Shown one piece after another: positions 5,533 through 18,917 of a stretch of DNA of 64,000 nt; within the stretch, counting starts at the first letter, position 1, and each line of letters starts with the position of its first letter. The stretch covers positions 2,252 to 66,251 of the forward strand of contig CAZBDA010000011.1 in the NCBI GenBank assembly GCA_964490445.1, read 5' to 3'. This DNA comes from an uncultured Rickettsiales bacterium (GTDB lineage: Bacteria > Myxococcota_A > UBA796 > UBA9615). The notes below the pieces were generated by a model that was not told the DNA's origin, searched no databases, and saw only the letters and a list, made by a program, of their open reading frames with translations. Made by a program: the position numbers and the translations under genes.

Positions 5533-5550
5533 CGACTCGTCCTTGTCTGC

Positions 5551-7161
5551 CTAGAAGCGGGCTACGCCGAAACTGTTGGGTCTCAACGCGCGGCAGTCCG
5601 CTTCCTGGCTGGTTGCCAGCGTAAACGCCAGGACACGGCGGGTGTCGCGTGGATCGATGAGTCCATCGTCCCAGACCCTCGCCGTTCCGAACAGGGCCCC
5701 AGCCTCCTTGTCGAGCTTGTCGCGCAGCTCTCCGGCCATGTAGGCGAGCGCCTCTTCCTCCAGGTTCATGCCCTGGCGCGCAAACTTGGCGCGGGTAATG
5801 ATCTCCATGACCTTGGCAGCCTGGGAGCCGCCCATCACAGCGACCTGGGCGTTCGGCCAGGCGAATATGAAACGGGGGTCAAACGAGCGACCGCACATGC
5901 CGTAATTGCCCGCTCCGTAGCCGCCGCCGAGGATGATGGTGATCTGCGGCACCGATGCGTTGGCCACCGCCTGGATCATCTTCGCGCCATGCTTGATGGC
6001 ACCCTTCTGTTCGGCCTCCCTGCCGACCATGTAGCCGGTCGTGTTCTGCAGGTAGACGATGGCGACCCCGGACTGGCAGCACAACTGGATGAACTGGGCG
6101 GCTTTTGTCGCCCCTTCCGGCTGGATGGGGCCGGCGTTGCCGACGATGCCGATGCTACGACCTTCGATGGCGGCGTGGCCGCACACGGTGTCGGAGCCAT
6201 AGCCCGCCTTGAACTCCAGGAAGTCCGAGTCGTCGACGATGCGGGCGATGACCTCGCGCACGTCGTAGGGATGCCGCGTATTGACGGGGACGATGCCGCA
6301 CAATTCGTCGATGTCGTAGCGCGGCGGTCGGCACGACGCTGCCGTCGGCGACCGGTCCCATGGCAACTTCTCTACCAACTCGCGGGCCAGGTGAAGGGCG
6401 TGCCCGTCGTCCTCTGCGAGGTACTCCCCGAGGCCAGAGATCGTGGCGTGCATCTCGGCGCCACCCAGTTCCTCGTCAGTAGCCTCTTCGCCGATGGCAG
6501 CCTTGACCAGCGGCGGCCCGGCCAGGAACACCTTCGCCTTGCCGCGAACCAGGACCACGTAGTCACTCAGACCAGGAATATAGGCCCCACCTGCGGTCGA
6601 GGACCCGTGCACGATGGTGATCTGGGGGATGCCTGCCGCCGACATCCGCGCCATGTTGCAGAACACCTTTCCGCCCTCGACGAACAGCTCGCTCTGGTAG
6701 GCCAGGTTGGCGCCGCCGCTCTCGACCATGGTGACGATCGGCAGCTTGTTTTCGATGGCGATCTGCTGCGCACGCAACGTCTTCTTGAGACCCATGGGCG
6801 AGGTCGTCCCCCCCTTGATGGCGCTGTCGCTGGCAACCACCAGGCAGCGAACGCCGGCGACAAAACCGATGCCGATGACATTGCCGCCACCCATCGCCTT
6901 GTCGCCACCGACATCGTCGTGCATCTTCAGCCCCGCCAGGCTGGACAGTTCCAAAAAGGGCATGCCCGGATCGAGAAGTTGGTCCACCCGCTCTCGGGGC
7001 ATCAGTTGACCACGCTTCTCGAACCTGCCGCGGCGCGTCTCGCCGTAGGCCCGGACATTCTCCTCCAGCTCCCGGTAGGCCTCGACCAACTGCAGCATTG
7101 CAGCGCGATCGCTCGCGTACTGCTCACTGCGGGTATCAATACTGGATTCGATGACGGGCAT
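5551..7161 (-). CDS. Acyl-CoA carboxylase beta (carboxyltransferase) subunit, geranyl-CoA carboxylase AtuC-like
   Basis: FEKRGQLMPRERV, FLELSSLAG, SAIKGGT, HGSSTAGGAY, GGAEMH, WDDGLIDPRDTR. Start placed at MPVIESS. As recalled, closer to AtuC than to MCC-beta. Confidence 0.88.
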   Translation of the reverse strand: MPVIESSIDTRSEQYASDRAAMLQLVEAYRELEENVRAYGETRRGRFEKRGQLMPRERVDQLLDPGMPFLELSSLAGLKMHDDVGGDKAMGGGNVIGIGFVAGVRCLVVASDSAIKGGTTSPMGLKKTLRAQQIAIENKLPIVTMVESGGANLAYQSELFVEGGKVFCNMARMSAAGIPQITIVHGSSTAGGAYIPGLSDYVVLVRGKAKVFLAGPPLVKAAIGEEATDEELGGAEMHATISGLGEYLAEDDGHALHLARELVEKLPWDRSPTAASCRPPRYDIDELCGIVPVNTRHPYDVREVIARIVDDSDFLEFKAGYGSDTVCGHAAIEGRSIGIVGNAGPIQPEGATKAAQFIQLCCQSGVAIVYLQNTTGYMVGREAEQKGAIKHGAKMIQAVANASVPQITIILGGGYGAGNYGMCGRSFDPRFIFAWPNAQVAVMGGSQAAKVMEIITRAKFARQGMNLEEEALAYMAGELRDKLDKEAGALFGTARVWDDGLIDPRDTRRVLAFTLATSQEADCRALRPNSFGVARF

Positions 7162-7225
7162 AGCGACTCGGCGGGAATCGTACTCGCTTTCGACGATGCG
7201 ATCGACCCGTTGGCCTTCGCAGCAC

Positions 7226-8266
7226 TCAGCAACCCGCCGGGCGCCGTGCCAATGCACGCAGACCAACCCGGTGGCGACGCACTCGCGCACGCCACTGGCT
7301 GGGCTCGAGACCACCGAGTTCAGCCACCAGCCGATTGCTGCAACGACGGCGGGCAATGCTACCGGGCAGATCGAGGACTGCCGCCCCCTGGGCCGCCGCC
7401 ACCACCAGCGGCAACAGCAGGCGTTGGCGCGGAGTCCAGGACGCCGCGAGACCTCTACCGCCGCTACCCTGCACGGCGAACAGTCCGTGGCGCGCGAGGG
7501 TCCACAGGGGAGATGCCAGCAGCCAACTCTTCGGTAGGTGTGTCACTGCGACTCGCTGCCTGTTGCGCTCCACGAGAAACACCTTGCGCAGGCTGAGCGC
7601 TCCGAACGAAGCGCCCACAGCGTGACGTACCACCGCACTCGGGACGTACCTACAGCAAAGCCCGAGGCGGGCGGCCCGCAGCGACAGATCAGCGTCCTCA
7701 CCGTAGCCAAAGTAGCGCCCGTCGAGCGCGCCGATCCGGCTCAGGACGGAACGACGGATAAGCACCGCCGCACCAGAGAACAACAGCACGTCTTCCTCCT
7801 CGAGGTAGCGCCCAGCCGCCGGCTCACCGCGACCACGACACCAGTTGAGCCCGTCCGGGTAGAGGCCATGACCACAATTGTCGAGGTGGTCCGGACGGTC
7901 GCGCAGCAGCAGCCGGGCTGCAGCAATGTCGGCGCCACCACGCAGCGCTGCGACCAGTTCGCCCAGGCAGCGACTCTCGACCTCGGCATCGGGATTCAGC
8001 AACAGCAGGAACTCGCCGCGCGCAACCGCCAGACCAGCATTGGCACCCGTGGCGAAGCCCTGGTTGCGGGCAAGGCGAACGACCCGCATCGGCAACTGCC
8101 CTGAGCTGTTCTGCCACTGCGTCAACGCAGCATCGACGCCACCATCGCTGGAACCGTTATCCACGAGTACGATCTCGAGTTGCCGATACTCCTGGCCCTG
8201 GAGCGCCTCGACGCAGCGCTGCAGGTCCTCGCAGCCGCGGTAGTGCACGATGACTGCCGACAGCAA
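7226..8266 (-). CDS. Glycosyltransferase family 2
   Basis: VLVDNGSSDG, NQGFATGAN, LLLNPDA, FSGAAVLIRR, YGEDADLSLR. Start codon uncertain. Confidence 0.88.
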   Translation of the reverse strand: MLSAVIVHYRGCEDLQRCVEALQGQEYRQLEIVLVDNGSSDGGVDAALTQWQNSSGQLPMRVVRLARNQGFATGANAGLAVARGEFLLLLNPDAEVESRCLGELVAALRGGADIAAARLLLRDRPDHLDNCGHGLYPDGLNWCRGRGEPAAGRYLEEEDVLLFSGAAVLIRRSVLSRIGALDGRYFGYGEDADLSLRAARLGLCCRYVPSAVVRHAVGASFGALSLRKVFLVERNRQRVAVTHLPKSWLLASPLWTLARHGLFAVQGSGGRGLAASWTPRQRLLLPLVVAAAQGAAVLDLPGSIARRRCSNRLVAELGGLEPSQWRARVRRHRVGLRALARRPAGC

Positions 8267-8422
8267 TCCGGGCTCACCGCTTGCGGATACTGCAGGGGCG
8301 AAAAGGTAGCTGATCGCACAAGCCTCCCTGCTCGGTCTGCCCCTACGGACGGGTTCGCGGTAGAGTCGCGGCGCGCCCTTGAATCAAGACCGGAGCGCAC
8401 CGATCCTACGGGAGAGACCTGG

Positions 8423-8845
8423 ATGTTCAAGAGATTGCACCACGTCGGCATCGCCGTCACCTCTCTGGACGACGGCGGCAAGGCCTGGGGACCCGATGGA
8501 CTCGGCCTCGTCGAAGAGGGCCGGGAGGATGTCGTGTCCGCCGCTACACGGGTAGCGATGTTCCCCGTCGGTGAGAGCCGCGTCGAACTGCTCGAAGCCA
8601 TGGGCGAGGACACACCGGTAGGCAAGTTCCTCGCGAAACGCGGCCCGGGAATTCACCACCTGTGTTTCGAGGTCGATGACATCGAAGCCGAGATCGCTCG
8701 CATAAGCGCAGCCGGAATGCGCGTGCTCGGCGATGCACCCAGCCCCGGAGCTCACGGCTCGCTGGTCGCCTTCATCCACCCGGCAGACACCGGGGGAGTG
8801 CTGGTCGAACTGAACCAGTTCGCCGATTCACCACGGGACGGGTAG
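8423..8845 (+). CDS. mce: Methylmalonyl-CoA epimerase (VOC fold)
   Basis: HHVGIAV, VELLEA, GIHHLCFEV, AFIHP..TGGVLVEL. GGAG SD upstream of ATG 8423. Confidence 0.85.
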   Translation: MFKRLHHVGIAVTSLDDGGKAWGPDGLGLVEEGREDVVSAATRVAMFPVGESRVELLEAMGEDTPVGKFLAKRGPGIHHLCFEVDDIEAEIARISAAGMRVLGDAPSPGAHGSLVAFIHPADTGGVLVELNQFADSPRDG

Positions 8846-8853
8846 CCCGGAAC

Positions 8854-9990
8854 GTGAACACCCGAGACCCACTCGCCGGCCTCGTACTGGCCGGCTTCGA
8901 AGGCACGCAGGCGCACTGCGAGGAAGTCGAAAGCCTCGCCGAGTTGGGCGTCGGTGGCTTCATCCTGTTCGCTCGCAATGTCGCCTCACCGCTGCAGGTC
9001 CACGGACTGCTCAGCGATCTTGGTTCGCTGTGTGCCGGCCGCGATCTGCTCCTTGCGGTAGACCAGGAGGGCGGACGAGTGGCGAGGCTGCGCAGCCCGC
9101 TGACCGAGTGGCCACCCATGGCCACACTCGGTGCCCACAACGACGAGGCACTGGCCGAACAAGTCGGCCGAGCCATGGGAGTAGAGTTGCTCTCCCTCGG
9201 CTTCAACGTGAACTTCGCACCGGTGCTCGACGTCCGCTGCGAGGACACGACCATCGCCATCGGCGATCGCTCCCTGGGCGAACAACCCGAGCGGGTGGCA
9301 CAGCTGGGCAGCGCCCTGGCGATCGGCTTGCAGAGCGCCGGGATCATGGCCTGCGCAAAGCACTTCCCCGGCCACGGCCATGTCGCCGAGGACTCCCACC
9401 ATGAACTGCCTGTCTGCCCCCTCGGCGAGCAGGAGTTGCGACGTGACCACATCGCGCCCTTTGCAGCAGCGCTACAGGCTGGCGTTGCCTCGTTCATGAC
9501 GGCGCACGTGGTCTATCCGGCGTTGGACAGCAGCCAGCCCGCAACCTTGTCGCCGCGCATCCTCGAGCAGCTACTACGAGAAGAAATGGGCTTCCAGGGA
9601 GTACTGTTCACGGACGACCTGGGCATGGGTGCCATCACCAACAACGGTACGGTTGGGGCCGCGGCCGTCGCGGCCATCCGCGCCGGGGCAGACGGGCTGC
9701 TGGTGTGTCGCCACCTGGACGCGGTGCGAGACGTACTGGCCGAACTGCGAACCACAGCAGACGCGGACCCGGGCTTCGCGCGCCGCTGCGAGCAGAGCCT
9801 CTCCCGCATCGCCGCCGCCGCCGCCCGTTTTCCGAGCCGTCCCCTGTCCGCTTCGCAACTGCCGAGCGTCCTGGGAGCAGCCGAACACCGGGCAATCGCC
9901 GAAAAACTGGGGGGGCTTGCTAGCAGCGCAAGCATCGATCCGACCCGGGGGCACGACCAACAGCGCCCGACAGCGGACCAGGAAGGCTGA
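8854..9990 (+). CDS. nagZ: Beta-N-acetylhexosaminidase (GH3)
   Basis: VDQEGGRV, NFAPVLD, KHFPGHG..EDSH, FTDDLGMGA catalytic motifs intact. Confidence 0.92.
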   Translation: MNTRDPLAGLVLAGFEGTQAHCEEVESLAELGVGGFILFARNVASPLQVHGLLSDLGSLCAGRDLLLAVDQEGGRVARLRSPLTEWPPMATLGAHNDEALAEQVGRAMGVELLSLGFNVNFAPVLDVRCEDTTIAIGDRSLGEQPERVAQLGSALAIGLQSAGIMACAKHFPGHGHVAEDSHHELPVCPLGEQELRRDHIAPFAAALQAGVASFMTAHVVYPALDSSQPATLSPRILEQLLREEMGFQGVLFTDDLGMGAITNNGTVGAAAVAAIRAGADGLLVCRHLDAVRDVLAELRTTADADPGFARRCEQSLSRIAAAAARFPSRPLSASQLPSVLGAAEHRAIAEKLGGLASSASIDPTRGHDQQRPTADQEG

Positions 9991-9994
9991 AGCA

Positions 9995-10954
9995 GTGACA
10001 CTCTCTCAAGCTGAGCTCGATGCGCAGTTGGATGCAGCCGTCGCCATGGCCCGCAAGCAGCTCTCAGCTAGCTATCCAGTAGTCGTCGACACGACCTGCT
10101 GGCGGTGGAGAAAGGGTGAACTGCGCGTTCGCGGTGGGGTTCTTGCCGCCTCCCAGGCAGAAATCTATCGGCAAGTTCTCAGCCAACAACTGGAGCGCGA
10201 CGACGTGCCGACTCCACTGGTGCTCTCTGAGCTCAGTTCCCTGTGGCAACTGCATCGCTGGCTGCCACTGGTCGGCGACCAGCCCGTCGACCTGCTACGG
10301 GCAATTGACGGCGAGTTACAGACCCAATGGCAGGCTCCGGGCTGGGTACGACACTTCGCCGAGGACCCCACTGGCGAGTTCGCCCTGGTCCAGGTAGCCG
10401 ACGGCACACTCGGCTGGATGAGCTGCAAGCAGCTGGATTTCTCGGCCGAGGGTCCCGTCGAAGACCCATGGGCCAGGACTCATCGGCCCGAGCGTGACCG
10501 GGTTGTCCCACCGCGTGCCGGAACTCCTGGGGCGACCCGGCGTCTCGACGCAAACCGCGCGCTGGCGAGCGAGGCGCGGTCCTGGCTCGGTCGTCCCTAC
10601 CTGTGGGGTGGAAACACGCGCGCAGCCGCCGATTGCAGTGGACTTGTCCAGTCCGTTCTGCACGCCACGACAGGCATCCTGCTCCCCAAGAACACCGCGG
10701 ACCAACAGGTATTCGGCAAAGAGGTTCCCGTCGATCAACTCCGTGCCGGCGACCTCGTGTTCGTCACCGGCCGGGAACTCGGCTTGCGCCATGTCGCCCT
10801 GGTCCTCGAAGACATCGAGGACCCTACCGCCTTGACCATGGTTCACGCGTCCATGTCCCGAAACGAAATCCTCGAAGAGCGGCTCGACATCTTCCTCGCC
10901 CGCCACGACTTCACCTGCGCCCGAAGAATCCTGCACTGGCCCGAGGAGAGCTAG
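9995..10954 (+). CDS. NlpC/P60 (C40) peptidase with SH3-like region, YkfC-like
   Basis: PYLWGG, DCSGLV (Cys), GDLVF, RHVAL (His), VHAS; SH3-like VQVADGTLGWM. GTG start 4 nt after the nagZ stop. Confidence 0.88.
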   Translation: MTLSQAELDAQLDAAVAMARKQLSASYPVVVDTTCWRWRKGELRVRGGVLAASQAEIYRQVLSQQLERDDVPTPLVLSELSSLWQLHRWLPLVGDQPVDLLRAIDGELQTQWQAPGWVRHFAEDPTGEFALVQVADGTLGWMSCKQLDFSAEGPVEDPWARTHRPERDRVVPPRAGTPGATRRLDANRALASEARSWLGRPYLWGGNTRAAADCSGLVQSVLHATTGILLPKNTADQQVFGKEVPVDQLRAGDLVFVTGRELGLRHVALVLEDIEDPTALTMVHASMSRNEILEERLDIFLARHDFTCARRILHWPEES

Positions 10955-12456
10955 TGGACCTGGACCGTCGAATTCACGTCGTCGGCGCTTCGGGCATCGA
11001 AGGGAGCGCGGTGCTTCTCTACCTGGCGGGGGAGCGCTGCATCGAGGGCATCGTCGCCCACGACTTCTCGGCCGACCGGCAGGCCTTTGAGCACTCGTTC
11101 CACAAGACCAACACAGCGTGGAGCGAAGCGGAGCGGGGGCAGGTCCTCGAGCGGCTCTGGAACCTGCCCATCAGCTTCCAGTTGGGCTCCGAGTACCTAC
11201 GCGGCATCGAGACCGCCGAGCTGATCTTCGCTTCGCAGAACTGGTTCAACTACGAGGCCAACCGACCGGCGATGGACAATGCGGTGGCGGCCGGTGCACA
11301 GCTGGTCGGCGTCCTCGATCTTGCCCTGGACCTCTTCTCAGGCCGAAGTGTCACGGTCACCGGCTCCAACGGAAAATCCACCACGGCCGCCCTGATCGGC
11401 CACCTTTTGCAGGCCTCTGTACCCGCCGGCAGCCGGGTCATGCGCAGTGGCAACGATCGTTCCGAGCAGGCCGCCCTGGCTGCACTGGAGCGCGCATCCT
11501 CAGCGGACCTGGCGGTCTGGGAAGTCTCCAACCGTCACCTGCGCGACCGCACCGTAGTCAGCGATGTAGCCGTGCTGACCAACATCACCCACAACCACAT
11601 CGAGGACCACGGTTCCTGGCAGGCATACGTTGCAGCAAAGAGCAGGCTGGTCCTCGCTCCGGGACAGGGAGGACATGCTGTGCTCAGTGCCGTCGATCCA
11701 CAGAGCCGCAAGATCACCGAGGCTGTGCGCGACAGTGGCGCGACGCTGTGGCTGTTTGGAGCGCCGCCCCAGCCGGGCTCTCTGGATGGGGCCTGCTGGG
11801 TCGAAGACGGGCTTATCCTGCTGCGGGAACCCCAGCGTCGCGACAACCTCGAGCTGGCTCGGGCCTCGGACCTGCCGCTGCCCGGCGAGCACAACCTGCT
11901 CAACCTTCAAGCAGCGCTCTGCGCGACAGCAGCCTGCGGCTTCCTGGACCGAGATGTCCTCCGCTCTGCCCTCTGCAACGCGCCCGGGCTACCCGGCCGG
12001 CTGGAGCTGGTCGCCGAACAGGCCGAGGTGCGTTGGGTCTATGACATCCAGGCGACCACTGCACCCGCAGCCGCTGCCGGGATCGAGGCGATTGCGGCCA
12101 GCGGCACGCCGATCGTCTTGCTGGTCGGCGGCGAAGACAAGGGCATGGACTTCACCGAGATGGCCAACGCCGCGGCGAGTTCCTCGCGACGCATCCTGGC
12201 GCTGCCGGGGACCGGGACGGATGCGCTGCTCGCCTCCCTGGCGGACCGCGCGGAAGTCGAACACTGCACATCACTGGACCACGGGCTCGAGCGAGCGCGA
12301 GCAATCGCGCAGCCGGGCGACACGGTGCTGCTGTCACCCGGCTGCGCGTTCTTCTATCGACACTACATCGACGGGGGGCCGTCCTTTACCGAGCGAGTAC
12401 GGCGTATGCTCGGTCTCGACTACGCCACGCCGCACACCTCGGAACAGCAGACATGA
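10954..12456 (+). CDS. Divergent MurD-like Mur ligase
   Basis: VTGSNGKSTT P-loop, NITHNH, YVAAK, GEHN, GGEDKG, VLLSPGCA. GTG overlaps the upstream TAG. Confidence 0.8.
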   Translation: MDLDRRIHVVGASGIEGSAVLLYLAGERCIEGIVAHDFSADRQAFEHSFHKTNTAWSEAERGQVLERLWNLPISFQLGSEYLRGIETAELIFASQNWFNYEANRPAMDNAVAAGAQLVGVLDLALDLFSGRSVTVTGSNGKSTTAALIGHLLQASVPAGSRVMRSGNDRSEQAALAALERASSADLAVWEVSNRHLRDRTVVSDVAVLTNITHNHIEDHGSWQAYVAAKSRLVLAPGQGGHAVLSAVDPQSRKITEAVRDSGATLWLFGAPPQPGSLDGACWVEDGLILLREPQRRDNLELARASDLPLPGEHNLLNLQAALCATAACGFLDRDVLRSALCNAPGLPGRLELVAEQAEVRWVYDIQATTAPAAAAGIEAIAASGTPIVLLVGGEDKGMDFTEMANAAASSSRRILALPGTGTDALLASLADRAEVEHCTSLDHGLERARAIAQPGDTVLLSPGCAFFYRHYIDGGPSFTERVRRMLGLDYATPHTSEQQT

Positions 12457-12490
12457 CCAGCGTCGAGCAGACATGACCAGCGTCGAGCAG
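12446..12490 (+). repeat. Exact 20-bp tandem duplication spanning the murD-like stop / nucleotidyltransferase start
   Basis: ACATGACCAGCGTCGAGCAG at 12451-12470 and 12471-12490, preceded by AGCAG (12446-12450). Confidence 0.97.
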
Positions 12491-13627
12491 CCCCTATCGG
12501 GTGTCCCTACCCTGGTCCTCGGGGCGGGCTTCGGCACCCGCATGCTGCCCCTGACCGAGCACATCCCCAAGCCTGCCATTCCACTGCTCGGTCGACCGCT
12601 ACTCGGCCATCCGCTGATCCACCTGTACGCAGGAGGCTGCCAGGATGTCTATGTAAATACCTTCCACCAGAGCGAGCGTCTCATGACGGCGATGGACTCC
12701 TGGGTTCAGCGACGGCTGCTACGCATGACACTGCAGTGGTCGATCGAGGGCCCCGAGATCCTCGGCACGGGAGGCGCCACCCGCAAGTTGGAGAATGAAC
12801 TTTGCGGCAACGGCGGGCCCTTCCTGATGCTCAACGGCGACTCCATCCTGGGCGCTGACCTGCCGAAGCTGTGGGCTGCACACCAGCGCAACCGCGACGA
12901 AGGGGCCCTGGCCACTTTGCTCTGCCTGCCACGCCGGGACGCCGTCGACTACGGTGCGGTGTGGGTCGCCGACGATGGCCGCATCCTGGACCTCGCCGGC
13001 CTCGGGCGCGCACCCGGTGTCAGCGACGAGGACCTGGCCGGCGCCACGCCGAGCATCTTCTGCGGCATCCAGATCATCGAGCCCGCGGTGGTTCAGCAGC
13101 TTCCTGCCGCAGGAACCAAGAGTTGCATCGTCCGGCAGGGCTACGCGCCACTGATCTCGGCCGGTAGCGAAATCCGTGCCGTCCTCGTCGAGCCCGACCT
13201 ACTCTTTCACGACGTGGGAACACCGGCACGCTACCTGGACGCGCAGAACGAACTGATGGATGGGCCCGACAAGCTCGTGCTGCCCACTCCGCCTGGAATC
13301 GATCCACTCGAAGCGCTGTTCCAGGAGGCCTCCTACGCAGTCGATCGTTCCGGGCGCGAGTATGGGAACCCCGATTCCGTAGACGGCCTGGCTGGTGCCA
13401 CCATCGAGCCCCCGGTGTTCTTCGGGCCGCGCAACGAGGTGGGACCAGGCGCCGTGGTCGGGCCGCACGCAAGCATCGGAGCGCTCAACTCGCTGGGAGC
13501 CAACTCGCGGGTCAGCGATGCCGCCCTGTGGAGTGGCGTACGACTGGCCTCGGGCAGCTCCATGTACGGAGAGATCGCTGCCTACCTGGGAGACGAGCTG
13601 CTACGCCTGCGAGGGCGAGACAACTGA
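12473..13627 (+). CDS. Sugar-phosphate nucleotidyltransferase (NDP-sugar synthase) with left-handed beta-helix C-terminus
   Basis: LGAGFGTRMLPLT..IPKP, LGTGG, LNGDS, DVGTP; hexapeptide repeats (VGPGAVVGPHASIG). Confidence 0.88.
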   Translation: MTSVEQPLSGVPTLVLGAGFGTRMLPLTEHIPKPAIPLLGRPLLGHPLIHLYAGGCQDVYVNTFHQSERLMTAMDSWVQRRLLRMTLQWSIEGPEILGTGGATRKLENELCGNGGPFLMLNGDSILGADLPKLWAAHQRNRDEGALATLLCLPRRDAVDYGAVWVADDGRILDLAGLGRAPGVSDEDLAGATPSIFCGIQIIEPAVVQQLPAAGTKSCIVRQGYAPLISAGSEIRAVLVEPDLLFHDVGTPARYLDAQNELMDGPDKLVLPTPPGIDPLEALFQEASYAVDRSGREYGNPDSVDGLAGATIEPPVFFGPRNEVGPGAVVGPHASIGALNSLGANSRVSDAALWSGVRLASGSSMYGEIAAYLGDELLRLRGRDN

Positions 13628-15442
13628 ATGAGCCGCTTCGCGAAGCAAACCGTAAACGAGATCATCCTCAACCGTGTGTCGGACCCGGCAGAGACCGTCC
13701 ACGGCTATTGCGAGGGTTCCGAGGGTGGCTTTCGGCCCATTACGGCAGGCGAGACCCGCAACACGACCCTGCAGATCGCCGCAGCGCTGCATGCCCGCGG
13801 GCTGGCAGCAGGCGATCGGATCGCCATCCTCGCCGAGGTTCGCCACGAGTGGGTGGTCTGGGACTTCGCCAATCTGCTCAGTCGCATGGTCACCATCGGC
13901 ATCTACCCGACCTCGACCCCCGCCCAGATCCTGTACCTCCTGCAACACAGCGAGAGCCGTGTCCTGGTGCTCGAGAATGCAGAGCAGCTCGCGATCCTGG
14001 CGAACATCCTCCCAGAGTGCCCCGACCTGCGCCTCATCGTCTGCCTCGATGATGACGGAATCCAGGCCGATGCGAGCGGTGCAGAGCAGATCGGCATCTC
14101 TGCTTTTGTCGAAGAAGGCCGGGCGGCGCTGCAGCAGAGTGGCGAGGCGGCTGTCATCGAGCGGGCCCACGCCGCGGAGCCCGACGACATCGCAACGCTG
14201 GTCTACACCTCGGGCACCACCGGACCACCCAAGGGCGCGATGCTCACCCATCGCAACCTGTTCCACGTCACCGAGACCGTCGCCGGCATCATGGACTTCA
14301 CCCCCGACGACCGCTCCATCGTGTACCTGCCCCTGGCCCACGTGCTGCAGCGCTACTCGGTCTACCTCGGCTGCCGCATCGGTATTGCCGGCTATTACAC
14401 CTCGCGGCTCAAGGAGCTCGGCGCCATCCTGCAGGAAGCACGGCCGACGGTGTTCGTCGGCGTGCCCCGGGTGTTCGAGAAGATCCACGCACGGGCTCTT
14501 GCTACTGCTGAGTCCATGTCCCCGTTTCGGCAGCGTATCTTTGCGCGGGCCTTCGCCGTCGGCCACCGGGTCGCTGAACTTCGGCGCACCGGCAGAAAGC
14601 CGGGCCTGTGGCTTCGCATTCAGCACCGAATCTTCGACCGGCTGGTATTTGCCAAGGTGCGGGCGAAGCTGGGCAACCGCGTGCGGATGGCCGTGTCGGG
14701 CGGCGCACCGCTGTCGACTCCCATTGCGCTCTGGTTCGAAGCCGCCGGGATCCTGGTCGTGGAAGGCTACGGGCTCACCGAGACCTCGGCGCCGGCCACC
14801 ACCGGTACAGCCGCCGCGTACAAGCACGGCACCGTCGGTCGAGCCATCCCCGACACCGAGGTGCGCATCGCCGAGGATGGCGAGATCGAGGTCAAGGGCC
14901 CCGGGGTGTTCCAGGGTTACTTCAAGAACGAGCAGGCCACCGCAGACGCGTTCACTGCCGACGGCTTCTTCAAGACCGGCGACATCGGCGAGCTCGACGA
15001 CGAAGGCTTCCTGAAGATCACCGACCGAAAGAAGGATCTCATCATCACGGCCGGCGGCAAGAATGTGGCCCCGGCGAACATCGAGAACCTGCTCAAGGAG
15101 CATCCCCTGATCGGGCAGGCCATGGTCTACGGTGACCGGCGTCCCTACCTCGTGGTCGCCATCAGCCTGGACCCTGAGGAGGCCGGCAGCTGGGCGGCCC
15201 GCGAGGGACGGCCGGGCAACAGCCTCGAGGAACTCAGCCGTGACGAAGTGGTAGAGGCAGCCATCGCCAAACACATTGCAGCAACCAACGGCCAGCTTGC
15301 CCCCTACGAAACACTCAAGAAGTGGCTGATCGTTCCGCTGCCCTTCATCCCGGAAAACGGCTACCTGACTCCGACTCTGAAGCTCCGCAGGCGGGCAATC
15401 GTCGAGACCTTCGGCAGCGACCTAGACGCACTCTACGAGTAG
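13628..15442 (+). CDS. Long-chain fatty acyl-CoA synthetase (AMP-dependent)
   Basis: YTSGTTGPPKG, EGYGLTET, FKTGDIG, ITDRKKDLI, TPTLKLRR. Confidence 0.93.
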   Translation: MSRFAKQTVNEIILNRVSDPAETVHGYCEGSEGGFRPITAGETRNTTLQIAAALHARGLAAGDRIAILAEVRHEWVVWDFANLLSRMVTIGIYPTSTPAQILYLLQHSESRVLVLENAEQLAILANILPECPDLRLIVCLDDDGIQADASGAEQIGISAFVEEGRAALQQSGEAAVIERAHAAEPDDIATLVYTSGTTGPPKGAMLTHRNLFHVTETVAGIMDFTPDDRSIVYLPLAHVLQRYSVYLGCRIGIAGYYTSRLKELGAILQEARPTVFVGVPRVFEKIHARALATAESMSPFRQRIFARAFAVGHRVAELRRTGRKPGLWLRIQHRIFDRLVFAKVRAKLGNRVRMAVSGGAPLSTPIALWFEAAGILVVEGYGLTETSAPATTGTAAAYKHGTVGRAIPDTEVRIAEDGEIEVKGPGVFQGYFKNEQATADAFTADGFFKTGDIGELDDEGFLKITDRKKDLIITAGGKNVAPANIENLLKEHPLIGQAMVYGDRRPYLVVAISLDPEEAGSWAAREGRPGNSLEELSRDEVVEAAIAKHIAATNGQLAPYETLKKWLIVPLPFIPENGYLTPTLKLRRRAIVETFGSDLDALYE

Positions 15443-15458
15443 TACCGGGAGCACGAAC

Positions 15459-16835
15459 GTGCGCGCGCCTCACGACCAGTCAGAGTCGGCCCCACTGCTG
15501 AAACTCAGCGTCGGCCACGCCGTCTGGGCCGTCGCCTGGCCGATGGTCGCGATCGGGTTACTGCGCTCTTGCTACTACCTGACCGACTCCTACTGGATCG
15601 GCAAAATCGACACCACGCACCTCGCGGCGCTGGGGGGCTCCGCGTTCGGCTGGTGGATCATGTTCATCTGCTGCAACGTCGCCGGCTACGGGGTCAATGC
15701 CCTGGTGGCAAGACACGAAGGGGCCGGCCGGCGCGAGCGAATTGCTCCAACCGTAGTTCAGGGTCTCTGGGTCGGGCTGGTGATCTACATCCTGCTGGTC
15801 GTCATCGCCTGGCCCTTCCGCGACCTGTATTTCCACTTGCTGGGCTTCGAAGCAGGAAGCGAGGAGCGAATTCTTGGCGGCAGATACCTCGGCATCGGTC
15901 TGCTCGGCTCCGTCGCCCTTGCCGGCCACGCCGTCACATTGGCAGCCTTCCGTGGCCTGGGAGACACCCGCACGGCGTTGTGGATTGCCGCCGTCTCCCT
16001 GGTCCTGAACGCCGGACTCGACCCGATCCTCATCTGGGGCTGGTTTGGCGCACCGGCGTTGGGCATCGGCGGTGCCGCATGGGCAACCACCGCGGCCAAT
16101 GCCCTGGCTGCCTTGCTGAGCCTCATCATCCTGGCCCGCAAGGGCTATGTACTGCAGCCCCGCCGGCCACACCCGAAGACCCTGGGAGTGATCGCCCGCA
16201 TCGGGATCCCAATCAGCAGCGAGGGGGTCAGCTTTGCGATGGTCTACATCATCCTCGGCCAGTTCATCACCGACTTCGGCAGCCACCAGATGGCGGCGCT
16301 GGGCGTCGGCCACCGCCTCGAGAGCCTCGCGTTCATGGTCTGCGTCGGCTTCCAGGTGGGAGCCGCCACCCTGGTAGGTCAGTACCTCGGTGCCGGCAAG
16401 CCCCGTGGAGCTGGGCAGGCTGTCCACCGGGCCGCCTCCCTGTGCGCTGCCGTCATGCTGCCCACAGGCATCCTGCTGTACGCCTTCGCGCCGCAGTTGT
16501 TCGGCGTGTTCACCGACGATCTGCTGACAATCGAGGCGGGCACCAGCTACCTGCGGATCCAGTCCATTGTCGTCGTGTTCATGGGCCTGGAGGTCGTCTA
16601 CCAGGGTGGCTTCAGCGGTAGCGGTGACACCCTGCCGCCACTTGTGCTCGGTGTCCTGTTCACTACGGGTCGCATCCCCCTGGCCTGGCTACTCGCCTAC
16701 CCTCTCGGCCTGGGCGTGGACGGAGTCTGGTGGGCCATCGCCGCCAGCACTGTCATCAAGGGGGTTGTCGCCTGGCTGTGGTTCCGACGGGGACGCTGGG
16801 TTGGCGCGCTCAGCGAGAAGGACCTCGCAATCTGA
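15459..16835 (+). CDS. MATE family efflux transporter/flippase
   Basis: About 12 hydrophobic segments; two-fold repeat motifs (GLGDTRTAL / GSGDTLPPL), LDPILIWG, GAAWAT. Confidence 0.92.
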   Translation: MRAPHDQSESAPLLKLSVGHAVWAVAWPMVAIGLLRSCYYLTDSYWIGKIDTTHLAALGGSAFGWWIMFICCNVAGYGVNALVARHEGAGRRERIAPTVVQGLWVGLVIYILLVVIAWPFRDLYFHLLGFEAGSEERILGGRYLGIGLLGSVALAGHAVTLAAFRGLGDTRTALWIAAVSLVLNAGLDPILIWGWFGAPALGIGGAAWATTAANALAALLSLIILARKGYVLQPRRPHPKTLGVIARIGIPISSEGVSFAMVYIILGQFITDFGSHQMAALGVGHRLESLAFMVCVGFQVGAATLVGQYLGAGKPRGAGQAVHRAASLCAAVMLPTGILLYAFAPQLFGVFTDDLLTIEAGTSYLRIQSIVVVFMGLEVVYQGGFSGSGDTLPPLVLGVLFTTGRIPLAWLLAYPLGLGVDGVWWAIAASTVIKGVVAWLWFRRGRWVGALSEKDLAI

Positions 16836-16864: not shown

Positions 16865-17938
16865 TCAGCCGCCAACCTCGAGCGCAAAGGCCGAGGCGCC
16901 CCAGGCCCGCTGCACCTGGACAGCAGCATGGCGCTCGACCAGGGCGAGCACCGTTCCACCGCCACCTGCGCCAGTGATCTTCGCCGCCAGAGCACCGGCG
17001 GCGAGAGCAACTCGAACAGCCTCCCGGTCGGCATCCCACACCACGCCCAACTGCTCAAGACATGCCTGCTGCTCCATCATGGCCTGCGCCAGTCCCGGCA
17101 AATCGCCCGAGGCCCAGGCGGAGCGACCGATGCGACTCCAGCGACCCATCTCCGCGATCGCCCGAACCAGGGTCGGCTCGGCACCGAGGCGCTGCCGAAC
17201 ACCCTCGACCAGGTCGCGGGTGGGGCAACTGCTCGCCTGCGGACGAAGCACCAACACAATCGGCGGCAGACCCTCCAGGGCCGTGGGATGAATGCCCTTC
17301 TCGAACCAGACCGGCTTCTCGAGGGTAGACACCGTGTGGTCAATGCCCGATGGCTGGCCGTGGAACATGCGTTCGACCGCAGCCGCAGCGAGGACGACCC
17401 GCTCGGTGTCAGGCGCCTGCCCATACCAGCACAGCAGCGCTCGCCCGAGCGCCGTGCCGAGTGCTGCCGAAGTGCCCATGCCCGACTGCAGACCGCCGGA
17501 ACGCACAGCAAGACGCAGCGGCAGCGGCAGTTGCAGGCCCAGCGCCTGGGCGGCAGTGCCCAGGGCACGGAAGACATCCGCCCGCGCACCTTCGGGGGCA
17601 CGCTCATCGAGGGTGATACTGATGGGCGGCACCTGTTGGTCACCGACAGAAGGCATGGCCTGAGTCGCACCGCCTCCTCCCGCCAACTGCAGATCCTCGG
17701 GATCAATCTGCAAACCCACCTGGCTGCTGATCTGGGCTGCGGCAAAGTCCATGGGGCCCCAGCCGGCACCCGGCTCAGCCAACACCACGGACAGGCGGTT
17801 GGTCGACAGAGGCAAGGCGAGTGCAGGCTCGCCGTAGACCACCGCATGCTCACCGAGCAGGATCAGCTTGCCGCAGGCTGTCGCCACGACGGGCCGATGA
17901 CCCGGAGCTGTATCTGGTAGATCAGAAGAGGTGGTCAT
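16865..17938 (-). CDS. mvk: Mevalonate kinase
   Basis: GKLILLGEHAVVYG, GMGTSAA, HGQPSGID, AKITGAGGGG. Start moved to MTTSSD. Confidence 0.88.
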   Translation of the reverse strand: MTTSSDLPDTAPGHRPVVATACGKLILLGEHAVVYGEPALALPLSTNRLSVVLAEPGAGWGPMDFAAAQISSQVGLQIDPEDLQLAGGGGATQAMPSVGDQQVPPISITLDERAPEGARADVFRALGTAAQALGLQLPLPLRLAVRSGGLQSGMGTSAALGTALGRALLCWYGQAPDTERVVLAAAAVERMFHGQPSGIDHTVSTLEKPVWFEKGIHPTALEGLPPIVLVLRPQASSCPTRDLVEGVRQRLGAEPTLVRAIAEMGRWSRIGRSAWASGDLPGLAQAMMEQQACLEQLGVVWDADREAVRVALAAGALAAKITGAGGGGTVLALVERHAAVQVQRAWGASAFALEVGG

Positions 17939-18917
17939 CGTGAAGTCTTGCCCCCGGTCCGGGACGATTTTCGAGTATTTCGGCTCGCGGGGCCAGCTTG
18001 TCGATACGCCGGCGTAGTTCGGGAGCATCCTTGCTCTCGCACAGGATGTGCACATTCGGCCCGGCATCGAGGGTGAAGTACACCGGCATGCCATCTTCCT
18101 CGCGCCAACTGCGCACTGCCTGCATCAAGGCCACCGTGCCCGGCTGCAGGTACAGCGCCGAAGGCTGGCCACTCATCATGATCCCCTGCACTTCCATGGC
18201 CTCGTGCTCGACGATCTCGCCGAACACCTGGAACTCACGCTGAGCCAGGGCGCCCTTCAGCGCGAGGATGCGGGCAGGCAACAGCTTCTGCCGTTCCGCC
18301 ATGAAAGGGTGGGCGCTCGCAATGCGGTGCCCCTCGGAGCTGGAAATCACCTTCGGGCTCCGCGAGACCAGGACGACCAGGTCGGTGAGATCCCAGTGGT
18401 CCGCGGGGCAGAACTGCTGTGAGACCGAACCCAGGTCGTCTTCTCCCGCGGTCCACTCCACGAAACCACTTTGAATCGACCGACAGGCGGAACCGCTGCC
18501 GCGTCGCGCCCAGCGAGTCATCTCGGTTTCGCTGGGGAGGTCTTCACCAAAGGCGCCCAGCGCGGCGCTCGCGAGCGCCGCGAACCCCGAGGCCGAAGAT
18601 GCAATCCCGGTACCGGCCGGAAAGGAGTTCACCGACGCCACCCGGGCATACATGCGGTACCAATCCGCACGGATCTTGTCGAGGTAGCGGGAAATTCGCA
18701 CGCCACGACCGTCGAGGACCCGCTCCCCTTCCAGGTAGATCTCGTCCTGCCGGAGCGTCGGATCCCACTCGACGGTAGTCGTGGTGACGGCAGCCGACAG
18801 GTTCATCGAGATGGAATCGTTCAGAGGCAGGTTGCAGTCGAAGTCCCGCTTACCCCAGTACTTGATGAAGGCGATGTTCGAGCACGCCGTCGCGCTGGCA
18901 CACATTCGATCGGTCAC
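17922..18917 (-). CDS. mvaD: Diphosphomevalonate decarboxylase
   Basis: NIAFIKYWGKRD, LPLNDSIS, GIASSASG, RRGSGSACRS, SSSEG, FTLDAGPNVH. Confidence 0.95.
   Translation of the reverse strand: MTDRMCASATACSNIAFIKYWGKRDFDCNLPLNDSISMNLSAAVTTTTVEWDPTLRQDEIYLEGERVLDGRGVRISRYLDKIRADWYRMYARVASVNSFPAGTGIASSASGFAALASAALGAFGEDLPSETEMTRWARRGSGSACRSIQSGFVEWTAGEDDLGSVSQQFCPADHWDLTDLVVLVSRSPKVISSSEGHRIASAHPFMAERQKLLPARILALKGALAQREFQVFGEIVEHEAMEVQGIMMSGQPSALYLQPGTVALMQAVRSWREEDGMPVYFTLDAGPNVHILCESKDAPELRRRIDKLAPRAEILENRPGPGARLHDDHLF

What the first reader, a model, noticed from the sequence alone, without database searches (positions are those of the whole stretch)
8423..16835. Seven-gene coupled operon joining peptidoglycan salvage to nucleotidylation, acylation and MATE export
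Seen: mce-nagZ-NlpC/P60-murD-like-nucleotidyltransferase-acyl-CoA ligase-MATE, with gaps of 8, 4, -1, about -4 (or +16, see the duplication), 0 and 16 nt. Established: NagZ and YkfC-type NlpC/P60 enzymes dismantle muropeptides; Mur ligases and nucleotidyltransferases rebuild activated precursors; MATE/MOP proteins can flip lipid-linked sugars. No amgK, murQ or anmK is present. Inference: a non-canonical salvage route or a pathway making and exporting an acylated muropeptide-like product.
Basis: partly seen in the sequence, partly recalled or inferred. Interest (0 to 1): 0.65.

Follow-up and report, generated by a model that had tools for sequence, protein, structure and literature searches.

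The report
Mosaic operon around a relocated MurD
The seven tightly packed genes are real but are a patchwork, not one pathway; the notable part is the genome's only MurD cell-wall ligase, an unusual type always paired with (sometimes fused to) a wall-peptide-cutting enzyme, in a Myxococcota family that lacks every recognised D-glutamate-making enzyme I tested for.

Summary
Observation confirmed: seven same-strand ORFs (8423-16835) with gaps of 8, 4, -1, +16, 0 and 16 nt, and the proposed domain identities.

The cluster has three layers.
- mce-nagZ and NT/fadD-MATE are old neighbours. They also lie together in a sister family that has a normal MurD.
- NlpC/P60-murD was inserted between them.
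- Two further genes (a PLP enzyme and an ATP-grasp ligase) were lost in this genus. That loss brought NT into ATGA overlap with murD.

All seven genes occur in order in only 3 of 14 family relatives, and contiguously in two.

The "murD-like" gene is the only MurD in the genome, and the dcw cluster runs mraY-ftsW with no murD. It belongs to a separate MurD subfamily ("MurD*"). All 15 family genomes lack glutamate racemase and MurL, and none has a D-amino-acid transaminase above cut-off.

MurD* is next to a cytoplasmic YkfC-type gamma-D-Glu peptidase in every locus checked inside the phylum and in one outside it. At least six protein clusters fuse the two. Relatives of the peptidase are also fused to a D-glutamate-cyclase-like domain.

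Best reading: a muropeptide-breakdown and D-Glu re-use couple. There is no evidence for an acylated, exported muropeptide.

The parts
8423..8845 (+). Methylmalonyl-CoA epimerase (VOC fold), 140 aa. An ancestral neighbour, not specific to the MurD module.
   Evidence: TIGR03081 scores 130.5 bits, above the cut-off. It is single-copy in 41/41 related genomes, with identity falling smoothly from 86% to 42%. It sits next to nagZ in sister family f3 as well.
8854..9990 (+). NagZ, a cytoplasmic beta-N-acetylglucosaminidase (GH3), 378 aa.
   Evidence: NF003740 scores 277.7 bits against a cut-off of 207. The mce-nagZ pair is conserved in all family loci that reach that far and in G016 of family f3.
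9995..10954 (+). Cytoplasmic YkfC / dipeptidyl-peptidase-VI-type NlpC/P60 cysteine peptidase, 319 aa. It has an N-terminal alpha/beta part, an SH3b-like domain and the catalytic domain. It is the partner of MurD*.
   Evidence: The AlphaFold2 model has pLDDT 95.7. The best PDB fold matches are 2evr, 2hbw, 4r0k, 3npf and 3h41, all gamma-D-Glu-L-diamino-acid endopeptidases. Cys214, His266 and His284 are invariant in 25 homologues. It lies next to MurD* in every locus checked in the phylum, and fusions exist.
10954..12456 (+). MurD*, 500 aa. This is the genome's sole MurD-type ligase. It belongs to a distinct subfamily and lies outside the dcw cluster.
   Evidence: The AlphaFold2 model has pLDDT 90.9, and its top 32 PDB matches are all full-length MurD. 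In the tree, the subfamily has 96/95 support and is separate from the canonical MurDs of sister families. Catalytic residues K115, N138, E157, H183 and K198 are kept. D182 is N, K319 is Q, S415 is F, and the loop after it is 2 aa shorter.
12450..12489 (+). Exact 20-bp tandem duplication of the murD-stop/NT-start overlap (ATGA). murD ends in copy 1 and NT starts in copy 2.
   Evidence: Shown. Relatives G001, G002 and G007 have the single ATGA overlap.
12473..13627 (+). Sugar-1-phosphate nucleotidyltransferase with a C-terminal hexapeptide domain, 384 aa. Specificity is unknown. It is an ancestral neighbour.
   Evidence: PF00483 matches; no NCBIfam model reaches its cut-off. Orthologues occur in 33/41 relatives, with identity falling gradually from 81% to 34%. 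Canonical GlmU is present elsewhere in the genome.
13628..15442 (+). Long-chain-type acyl-CoA (AMP-forming) ligase, 604 aa.
   Evidence: PF00501 and PF23562 match. It resembles FadD11 (348 bits, below the cut-off). It is adjacent to NT in families f1 and f3.
15459..16835 (+). MATE-family efflux transporter, 458 aa.
   Evidence: TIGR00797 scores 276.9 bits, above the cut-off. MurJ scores only 31.7 bits. In G001 it is separated from fadD by an opposite-strand gene.

Best explanation
The seven genes are probably one transcription unit in this genome, but they are a mosaic with three layers.

(1) mce-nagZ on one side and NT/fadD-MATE on the other are old neighbours in this order of Myxococcota. 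They have no demonstrable shared pathway.

(2) Between them, the family ancestor acquired a module: a cytoplasmic YkfC-type gamma-D-glutamyl peptidase (NlpC/P60), MurD*, a PLP enzyme and an ATP-grasp ligase. MurD* replaced the dcw-cluster murD and is the only enzyme here that can add residue 2 of the peptidoglycan stem.

(3) This genus lost the PLP and ATP-grasp genes. That loss put NT into translational coupling with murD.

Inferred working model for the core:
- AmpG imports muropeptides.
- NagZ, together with AmpD-like and LdcA enzymes encoded elsewhere, strips them down.
- The NlpC/P60 enzyme cuts the gamma-D-Glu-diamino-acid bond.
- The D-Glu part is handed back to UDP-MurNAc-L-Ala by MurD*.

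This hand-off matters because the family has no glutamate racemase and no MurL.

Shown: gene identities, gene order and its history, MurD* as the sole MurD, absence of MurI and MurL, and the adjacency and fusion of NlpC/P60 with MurD*.

Inferred: the substrates, the D-Glu hand-off, and where net D-Glu comes from.
For: Gene identities.

MurD* is the sole MurD:
- The own dcw cluster runs mraY (C63:19063-20133) straight into ftsW (20133-21248), then murG and murC.
- Every one of the 15 family genomes has exactly one MurD-type hit, and it is the variant.
- Sister families keep murD between mraY and ftsW.
- MurD* forms a separate clade with 96/95 support and has a full MurD fold.

D-Glu enzymes:
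- MurI (TIGR00067) is found in 0/15 family genomes and in 25/26 other genomes of the class.
- PF01177 has no hit in G000, G003 or G041.
- MurL (NF041275) is found in 0/15 family genomes. G040, the one outgroup genome without MurI, has MurL just upstream of its MurD, which serves as a positive control.

The NlpC/P60 partner:
- It has the YkfC/DPP-VI fold and an intact Cys-His-His triad.
- It is next to MurD* in all family loci and in the distant families of G041 and G200. It is also adjacent in an unrelated GC-rich organism.
- Six fused NlpC/P60::Mur-ligase protein clusters exist.
- The same peptidase unit is fused to a D-glutamate-cyclase-like domain in five other clusters. Both fusion partners are enzymes that act on D-Glu.
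- In another lineage MurD* overlaps an Asp/Glu racemase gene, which suggests MurD* uses D-Glu.

Mosaic history.

Recycling genes elsewhere in the genome (AmpG, AmpD-like, LdcA, Mpl).
Against: - No substrate was tested.
- Characterised YkfC enzymes release L-Ala-D-Glu, not free D-Glu, and need a free L-Ala terminus (PMC9928106). An extra dipeptide-cleaving step would be needed, and none was identified.
- Salvage alone cannot give net D-Glu for growth unless foreign peptidoglycan is consumed.
- Other D-Glu sources are not excluded: a DapF homologue, since Chlamydia DapF is reported to racemise Glu (cited in PMC9928106); two ambiguous class IV aminotransferases; and an enolase-superfamily racemase-like gene next to a GH3 ligase.
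- The genomes are MAGs, 73-100% complete.
- Co-transcription is inferred only from spacing and a crude terminator scan.
Confidence: 0.55

Rival explanations
1. MurD* is simply this lineage's ordinary D-Glu-adding MurD. Its neighbourhood with NagZ and the YkfC-like peptidase reflects only co-regulation of wall turnover with wall synthesis. D-Glu is made de novo by an enzyme not recognised as such: a moonlighting DapF, a class IV aminotransferase, the enolase-type racemase plus GH3 pair, or (in other genera) the PLP plus ATP-grasp pair.
For: - MurD* keeps all catalytic residues and the D-Glu alpha-carboxylate ligands T321 and K348.
- It is coupled to an Asp/Glu racemase gene in another lineage.
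- A DapF homologue is present, and there is a published precedent in Chlamydia (cited in PMC9928106).
- Two class IV aminotransferases are present.
- An enolase-superfamily gene (DgcA-like, 116 bits) sits beside a GH3 gene. The pair is conserved in G000, G001, G002 and G005; the G007 contig ends inside the enolase gene. This clade includes the two genera that lack the PLP and ATP-grasp genes.
Against: - It does not explain why the peptidase is adjacent to MurD* across MurD* identities down to about 30%, nor why it is fused to it at least six times.
- It does not explain why the same peptidase unit is fused to a D-Glu-cyclase-like domain.
- No candidate reaches a curated cut-off for a D-Glu-forming enzyme.
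Confidence: 0.3
2. A MurD2-like route: MurD* ligates L-Glu, and an unidentified non-MurL enzyme then epimerises the terminal Glu. The operon partner would be the candidate.
For: - The situation resembles Xanthomonas (PMC8788868): no MurI, and murD paired with a partner gene.
- K319 is Gln in MurD*. The K319T change lets E. coli MurD accept L-Glu (PMC8788868).
- The loop at S415/L416 that binds the gamma-carboxylate of D-Glu is altered.
Against: - The two residues shown to set L-Glu specificity in MurD2 (E197 and R358, equivalent to E. coli D182 and K348) are N and K here.
- No MurL homologue is present, and the PP-loop motif described for MurL in earlier scan notes is absent from the genome.
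- A papain-fold hydrolase has no precedent as an epimerase.
- In another lineage MurD* sits next to a racemase gene.
- A dcw-resident MurD class from Armatimonadota also varies at these positions, so they are weak predictors.
Confidence: 0.08
3. One reading: one seven-enzyme pathway that rebuilds, nucleotidylates and acylates a muropeptide-like compound and exports it through the MATE protein.
For: - Spacing across all seven genes is tight.
- murD and NT overlap by ATGA in three relatives.
- In G005, murD, the PLP gene, the ATP-grasp gene, NT, fadD and MATE appear contiguous across two contigs that abut within the ATP-grasp gene.
Against: - NT/fadD-MATE lie next to mce-nagZ without the MurD module in a sister family.
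- They are separated from murD by 9-15 kb in G003, G004, G006, G010 and G011; in G010 the stretch holds opposite-strand genes.
- An antisense gene splits fadD from MATE in a genome of the same genus.
- The MATE protein is efflux-type, not a MurJ- or Wzx-like flippase.
- NT is not MurU.
- MurD* is needed as the housekeeping MurD.
Confidence: 0.05

Closest known systems
MurD2/MurL alternative D-Glu route (Xanthomonas oryzae XOO_1320/XOO_1319; PMC8788868, PMC5808125)
   Same: There is no glutamate racemase. The only MurD-type ligase is paired with a partner gene, here outside the dcw cluster. The pair is sometimes fused.
   Different: There is no MurL homologue. The MurD2 specificity residues E197 and R358 are N and K here. 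The partner is a papain-fold gamma-D-Glu peptidase, not an ATP-dependent epimerase. MurD* is a different clade.
YkfC / dipeptidyl-peptidase VI / AvPCP gamma-D-glutamyl-L-diamino-acid endopeptidases (PDB 3h41, 4r0k, 3npf, 2hbw, 2evr; Chlamydia YkfC, PMC9928106)
   Same: SH3b plus NlpC/P60 fold, a Cys-His-His triad, no signal peptide, and a peptidoglycan-recycling context.
   Different: Sequence identity is only about 17-21%. It has an extra N-terminal alpha/beta segment. It forms a lineage-restricted clade. It is adjacent or fused to MurD*, and relatives are fused to a D-Glu-cyclase-like domain.
Canonical MurD (E. coli b0088; PDB 1uag, 2jfg and others)
   Same: Full three-domain fold, with TM-scores up to 0.83. 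K115, N138, E157, H183, carbamylated K198, T321 and K348 are conserved.
   Different: It scores below the TIGR01087 cut-off, and PF21799 does not detect the N domain. The N domain carries an insertion of about 16-25 aa. D182 is N, K319 is Q, S415 is F, and a loop is 2 aa shorter. It is not in the dcw cluster.
Gram-negative muropeptide recycling pathway (AmpG-NagZ-AmpD-LdcA-Mpl, with MpaA/YcjG)
   Same: Homologues of NagZ, AmpG, AmpD, LdcA and Mpl, and a YcjG-like enolase-superfamily protein, are present.
   Different: No AnmK, MurQ or MpaA was found. An NlpC/P60 enzyme takes the place of MpaA. The essential MurD is embedded in the recycling operon.
AmgK/MurU MurNAc salvage and MurJ/Wzx MOP flippases
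   Same: NT has the same general nucleotidyltransferase fold. The MATE protein belongs to the MOP superfamily.
   Different: NT scores 63.5 bits against a cut-off of 250 for MurU. AmgK was not searched for. The protein scores above the cut-off on the MATE model and only 31.7 bits against 235.55 on MurJ.

Membership tests
[quoted passage not shown] | Reaches the curated HMM cut-off | tested here: not met
   It scores 190.7 bits against a cut-off of 211.95. The match covers only model positions 77-440.
[quoted passage not shown] | Three-domain MurD fold and catalytic residues (K115, N138, E157, H183, K198) | tested here: met
   The AlphaFold2 model has pLDDT 90.9, and its top 32 PDB matches are all full-length MurD. 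All five residues are conserved.
[quoted passage not shown] | D-Glu pocket residues (T321, K348, S415, L416/F422) and K319 | tested here: inconclusive
   T321 and K348 are kept. K319 is Q, S415 is F, and there is a 2-aa deletion. A dcw-resident class from Armatimonadota also varies at these positions.
[quoted passage not shown] | [quoted passage not shown] | not testable with these tools
   This needs an enzyme assay. Indirect support: it is the only MurD-type gene in a genome that otherwise has murC, murE, murF, mraY and murG.
MurD2/MurL pathway | MurL epimerase present (NF041275) | tested here: not met
   It is found in 0/15 family genomes at E<=0.01. The positive control G040 scores 299.7 bits.
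MurD2/MurL pathway | MurD2 specificity residues Glu197 and Arg358 (equivalent to E. coli D182 and K348) | tested here: not met
   The residues are Asn and Lys in all 14 MurD* sequences compared.
MurD2/MurL pathway | No glutamate racemase and no D-amino-acid transaminase in the genome | tested here: inconclusive
   MurI is found in 0/15 family genomes and PF01177 has no hit. However, two class IV aminotransferases below all cut-offs remain.
YkfC/DPP-VI-type gamma-D-Glu-L-diamino-acid endopeptidase (NlpC/P60, C40) | SH3b plus NlpC/P60 fold with a Cys-His-polar triad | tested here: met
   PF00877 scores 69.6 bits.
YkfC/DPP-VI-type gamma-D-Glu-L-diamino-acid endopeptidase (NlpC/P60, C40) | [quoted passage not shown] | not testable with these tools
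   This needs an enzyme assay. SH3_16 (PF18348) is not detected in this protein, but it is detected in the fused relative P0351.
NagZ (NF003740) | Curated cut-off reached | tested here: met
   It scores 277.7 bits against a cut-off of 207.
Methylmalonyl-CoA epimerase (TIGR03081) | Curated cut-off reached; a vertical single-copy orthologue | tested here: met
   It scores 130.5 bits against a cut-off of 114.95. It is present in 41/41 genomes, as a single copy in 39 of them.
MurU (MurNAc-1-P uridylyltransferase, NF045761) | Curated cut-off reached | tested here: not met
   It scores 63.5 bits against a cut-off of 250.
MurJ/MOP lipid-II flippase (TIGR01695) | Curated cut-off reached | tested here: not met
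   It scores 31.7 bits against a cut-off of 235.55. The MATE model scores 276.9 bits against 147.4.

The most novel reading that the evidence does not exclude
MurD* plus its YkfC-like peptidase would be an undescribed third way of provisioning D-glutamate for peptidoglycan. The first way is MurI or Dat with MurD; the second is MurD2 with MurL. In most lineages the module also carries a fold-type-II PLP enzyme and an ATP-grasp ligase, and once a LysW-like carrier.

Two forms are possible.
(a) D-Glu is obtained by hydrolysing gamma-D-glutamyl peptides from the cell's own or from prey muropeptides, and is channelled to MurD*. This marine Myxococcota family would then be effectively D-Glu auxotrophic and dependent on foreign cell wall.
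(b) The module runs a derivatise, epimerise and release sequence: a ligase, then a PLP or enolase-type epimerase, then the gamma-D-Glu-specific peptidase.
Probability: 0.3. Interest if true: 0.8.

Novelty: new variant of a known kind. Interest (0 to 1): 0.6.

Why it matters
D-Glu supply and MurD are essential steps in wall synthesis and are antibiotic targets. The reviews I read (PMC5808125, PMC8788868) name two D-Glu-forming enzyme types, glutamate racemase and D-amino-acid transaminase, plus the MurD2/MurL bypass.

Here a whole bacterial family, 15 genomes in 8 genera, lacks MurI, MurL and the canonical dcw murD. It carries a separate MurD subfamily locked to a gamma-D-Glu peptidase. That peptidase's relatives are also fused to a D-Glu-cyclase-like domain.

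This makes the question "where does the D-Glu come from?" directly testable with two or three recombinant proteins and an E. coli D-Glu auxotroph. It may also reveal a dependence on salvaged cell wall in marine Myxococcota.

The finding is also a caution. Tight spacing, and even ATGA coupling, can arise from recent deletions between unrelated neighbours.

Tried and rejected
- **NT as a GlmU replacement.** Rejected. Canonical GlmU is present in this genome and in 13 of the other 14 family genomes (none found in the 86%-complete G005).
- **NT partnered with an AmgK-like kinase.** The gene between NT and fadD in other genera is a response-regulator-like protein read by eye, whose G016 counterpart has Response_reg and GAF domains. 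No kinase partner was seen.
- **mce as a neofunctionalised epimerase for the Glu step.** Rejected. It is a smooth single-copy orthologue in 41/41 genomes and already lies next to nagZ in a family with normal MurD and MurI.
- **mce tied to the upstream carboxylase.** The carboxyltransferase scores only 281 bits on the methylmalonyl-CoA decarboxylase-type (mmdA) model, so it looks more like a methylcrotonyl-CoA carboxylase type. No link was shown.
- **The divergent N domain of MurD* as a sign of a new nucleotide substrate.** Rejected. The dcw-resident class from Armatimonadota has the same insertion.
- **MurL by motif search.** No GGGKDS PP-loop protein with a Cys cluster is present in the genome. 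My guessed accession PF26298 is not in the library. The NF041275 model then gave a clean negative with a positive control.
- **D-amino-acid transaminase.** No hit reaches the cut-off. The two class IV homologues are ambiguous.
- **The PLP and ATP-grasp pair elsewhere in this genome.** Absent by tblastn.
- **The search for related loci in genome contigs.** It returned only one locus.
- **Folding a natural NlpC/P60::MurD* fusion.** Not done.


Full report
**Observation**

The window has 65% G+C. Seven + strand ORFs lie between 8423 and 16835, with junction gaps of 8, 4, -1, +16, 0 and 16 nt.
- methylmalonyl-CoA epimerase (above cut-off);
- NagZ (above cut-off);
- an NlpC/P60 protein;
- a Mur ligase closest to MurD, but below the MurD cut-off (190.7 against 211.95 bits) and with no match for its first 100 residues or so;
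- an NTP-transferase with a hexapeptide tail;
- an AMP-forming acyl-CoA ligase;
- a MATE transporter (above cut-off).

The duplication at the murD/NT junction is an exact 20-bp tandem repeat at 12450-12489. A crude scan finds no + strand terminator-like site and no sigma-70-like promoter inside the block.

**Is the order conserved?**

The window is contig C11 of a 5.9-Mb MAG that is 94.7% complete. Names attached to homologues point to Myxococcota, many from marine samples. I mapped the window's proteins onto loci from 14 other genomes of the same family, which spans 8 genera.
- GT2(-)|mce-nagZ-NlpC/P60-murD is present in every family locus that extends far enough.
- NT-fadD-MATE follows murD only in G001 and G002 (same genus) and in G007.
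- In G001 an opposite-strand SDR-type gene sits between fadD and MATE.
- In the other genera murD is followed by a fold-type-II PLP enzyme and an ATP-grasp ligase. Both are absent from this genome.
- In G005 the order appears to be murD, PLP, ATP-grasp, NT, fadD, MATE, read across two contigs that abut within the ATP-grasp gene.
- In G003, G004, G006, G010 and G011, NT lies 9-15 kb further on. In G010, the locus examined, that stretch holds opposite-strand exopolysaccharide genes (a WecB-like and an NfrB-like GT2, read by eye).
- In G016 the layout is GT2(-)|mce-nagZ, four unrelated genes, NT(-)|fadD-MATE. G016 belongs to a sister family that has MurI and only a canonical-type MurD hit at about 33% identity.
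- mce is a smooth single-copy orthologue in 41/41 genomes. NT declines gradually in identity across the class.

So the "operon" has three layers. There is an old mce-nagZ ... NT/fadD-MATE neighbourhood. NlpC/P60-murD-PLP-ATP-grasp was inserted into it. The last two genes were then deleted in this genus and in G007. That deletion left murD and NT overlapping by ATGA. In this genome the overlap was later duplicated, which is the 20-bp repeat.

**The murD-like gene is the only MurD**

- A whole-genome search with the MurD model gives this gene as the best hit. The other hits are MurC, MurE and MurF in the dcw cluster on C63, and Mpl on C38.
- On C63, mraY (19063-20133) runs directly into ftsW (20133-21248), then murG and murC. 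There is no room for murD.
- Each of the 15 family genomes has a single MurD-type hit, and it is the variant, at 53-68% identity. Other families of the order and class have only a canonical MurD at 27-38% identity, and it sits between mraY and ftsW in the four genomes checked.
- In a maximum-likelihood tree the variant ("MurD*") forms a group with 96/95 support. It is joined by sequences from two distant Myxococcota families and from other phyla, and it is apart from the canonical MurDs of the sister families. This is gene displacement, not fast evolution of the local gene.
- The AlphaFold2 model (pLDDT 90.9) matches solved MurD structures over its full length, with TM-scores up to 0.83.
- K115, N138, E157, H183, K198, T321 and K348 (E. 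coli numbering) are conserved. D182 is N, K319 is Q, S415 is F, and the loop after it is two residues shorter, throughout the clade.
- The N-domain insertion is shared with a MurD class that sits in a normal dcw cluster in Armatimonadota. I therefore do not read the insertion as a change of nucleotide substrate.

**No recognised D-Glu source**

- Glutamate racemase (TIGR00067) is absent from all 15 family genomes and present in 25 of 26 other genomes of the class.
- The broader Asp/Glu racemase family PF01177 has no hit in G000, G003 or G041.
- The known bypass is MurD2 plus MurL (PMC8788868, PMC5808125). MurL (NF041275) is absent from all 15 family genomes. G040, the one outgroup genome without MurI, has a MurL homologue (299.7 bits) immediately upstream of its MurD. 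This positive control also shows that the MurL route exists in this class.
- The MurD2 specificity residues (E197 and R358) are N and K here.
- No D-amino-acid transaminase reaches its cut-off. Two class IV aminotransferases remain ambiguous.
- A DapF homologue is present. Chlamydia DapF is reported to racemise glutamate (cited in PMC9928106).

**The partner peptidase**

- The 319-aa NlpC/P60 protein has no signal peptide by inspection.
- Its model is very confident (pLDDT 95.7). The best fold matches are SH3b-bearing gamma-D-Glu-L-diamino-acid endopeptidases: 2evr, 2hbw, DPP VI (4r0k, 3npf) and YkfC (3h41).
- Cys214, His266 and His284 are invariant.
- Its close full-length relatives form a small clade whose named members are Myxococcota or 'delta/proteobacteria' MAGs.
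- Among 401 genomes sampled from the phylum, MurD* occurs in 11: nine of this family plus G041 and G200. The peptidase has full-length hits at E<=1e-65 only in this family, and weaker hits next to MurD* in G041 and G200.
- Outside the phylum, one organism has NlpC/P60, MurD*, a LysW-like protein, PLP and ATP-grasp in a row.
- Six protein clusters are NlpC/P60::Mur-ligase fusions: P0028, P0062, P0066, P0269, P0286 and P0351. Two of them sit directly upstream of a PLP-enzyme gene, in one case followed by an ATP-grasp gene.
- Five other clusters fuse the same SH3b plus NlpC/P60 unit to a D-glutamate-cyclase-like domain, PF14336.
- In another lineage MurD* overlaps an Asp/Glu racemase gene.

So the slot beside MurD* is filled either by a racemase or by this peptidase. 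The peptidase's two fusion partners both belong to families that act on D-Glu.

**Working model**

The genome encodes AmpG, AmpD-like amidases, LdcA and Mpl, but not AnmK, MurQ or MpaA. I infer the following.
1. Imported muropeptides are trimmed by NagZ, AmpD and LdcA.
2. [quoted passage not shown]
3. The D-Glu moiety is returned to the precursor pathway by MurD*.

The weak step is the release of free D-Glu. Characterised YkfC enzymes yield L-Ala-D-Glu and need a free L-Ala terminus (PMC9928106).

Net D-Glu must come either from foreign peptidoglycan or from an unrecognised enzyme. Candidates in this genome:
- DapF;
- the two class IV aminotransferases;
- an enolase-superfamily racemase-like gene (C51:8316-9491; 116 bits to N-acetyl-D-Glu racemase DgcA), tightly followed by a GH3 amide synthetase.

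That enolase-GH3 pair is conserved in G000, G001, G002 and G005, and the G007 contig ends inside the enolase gene. This clade includes the two genera that lost the PLP and ATP-grasp genes.

**NT, FadD and MATE**

Nothing links these three to muropeptides.
- NT is not MurU and not a GlmU substitute.
- FadD is a generic long-chain-type ligase.
- The MATE protein is efflux-type.

Their coupling to murD here is a by-product of a deletion.

**Verdict**

The interesting content is the MurD*-peptidase couple in a lineage that lacks MurI and MurL.

**Limits**

All genomes are MAGs. No biochemistry was possible.

Noticed in passing
window 12450-12489: An exact 20-bp tandem duplication (GACATGACCAGCGTCGAGCA x2) duplicates the murD-stop/NT-start ATGA overlap. 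Copy 1 leaves a stray ATG that would give a 7-codon out-of-frame ORF. Relatives G001, G002 and G007 have the single overlap. It could be real or an assembly artefact.
   Followed up: partly
own genome contig C63:13646-29205 (outside the window): The dcw cluster is ftsI-murE-murF-mraY-ftsW-murG-murC-murB..ftsA-ftsZ with no murD. mraY ends where ftsW begins.
   Followed up: yes
L085 (G040:C29:5982-7187, with MurD at 7345-8472): A genome of the same class that lacks MurI carries a MurL homologue (NF041275, 299.7 bits) directly upstream of its MurD. So the MurD2/MurL route seems to occur in Myxococcota, outside the taxa listed in PMC8788868.
   Followed up: partly
L030:4892-7041; L078:5517-8331; L105:9377-11619: A fold-type-II PLP enzyme (distant from threonine synthase, E about 1e-11) and an ATP-grasp ligase (weakly BesA-like) follow MurD* in most lineages. 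Once a LysW-like zinc-ribbon carrier lies between MurD* and the PLP gene. Their function is unknown. Both genes are missing from this window's genome.
   Followed up: partly
own genome contig C51:6430-9491 (minus strand): An enolase-superfamily (muconate-cycloisomerase / DgcA / dipeptide-epimerase-like) gene is followed closely by a GH3-family amide synthetase. In relatives the two are only a few bases apart. The pair is conserved in G000, G001, G002 and G005, and the G007 contig ends inside the enolase gene. It is a possible 'derivatise then racemise' unit.
   Followed up: partly
P0256, P0265, P0295, P0323, P0333 (from the representatives search): These proteins of 561-591 aa fuse a D-glutamate-cyclase-like domain (PF14336) to the same SH3b plus NlpC/P60 unit.
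   Followed up: partly
L029:13753-14634 (G001): An opposite-strand NAD-dependent epimerase/dehydratase-like gene is inserted between fadD and MATE in a genome of the same genus.
   Followed up: no
window 16865-22424 (minus strand) and 3559-7356 (minus strand): Downstream lies what looks like a complete mevalonate-pathway cluster: mevalonate kinase, diphosphomevalonate decarboxylase, phosphomevalonate kinase, HMG-CoA reductase, and a type-2 IPP isomerase with an unmatched N-terminal extension of about 110 aa. Apart from Pfam checks on the kinase and the isomerase, these names are by-eye reads. Upstream lies a biotin carboxylase plus carboxyltransferase pair that looks like the methylcrotonyl-CoA carboxylase type.
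   Followed up: partly
L076:8001-9431 (Armatimonadota MAG): A MurD class that sits normally between mraY and ftsW has H at D182, L at K319 and P at K348. So 'D-Glu pocket' residues vary even in dcw-resident MurDs.
   Followed up: partly
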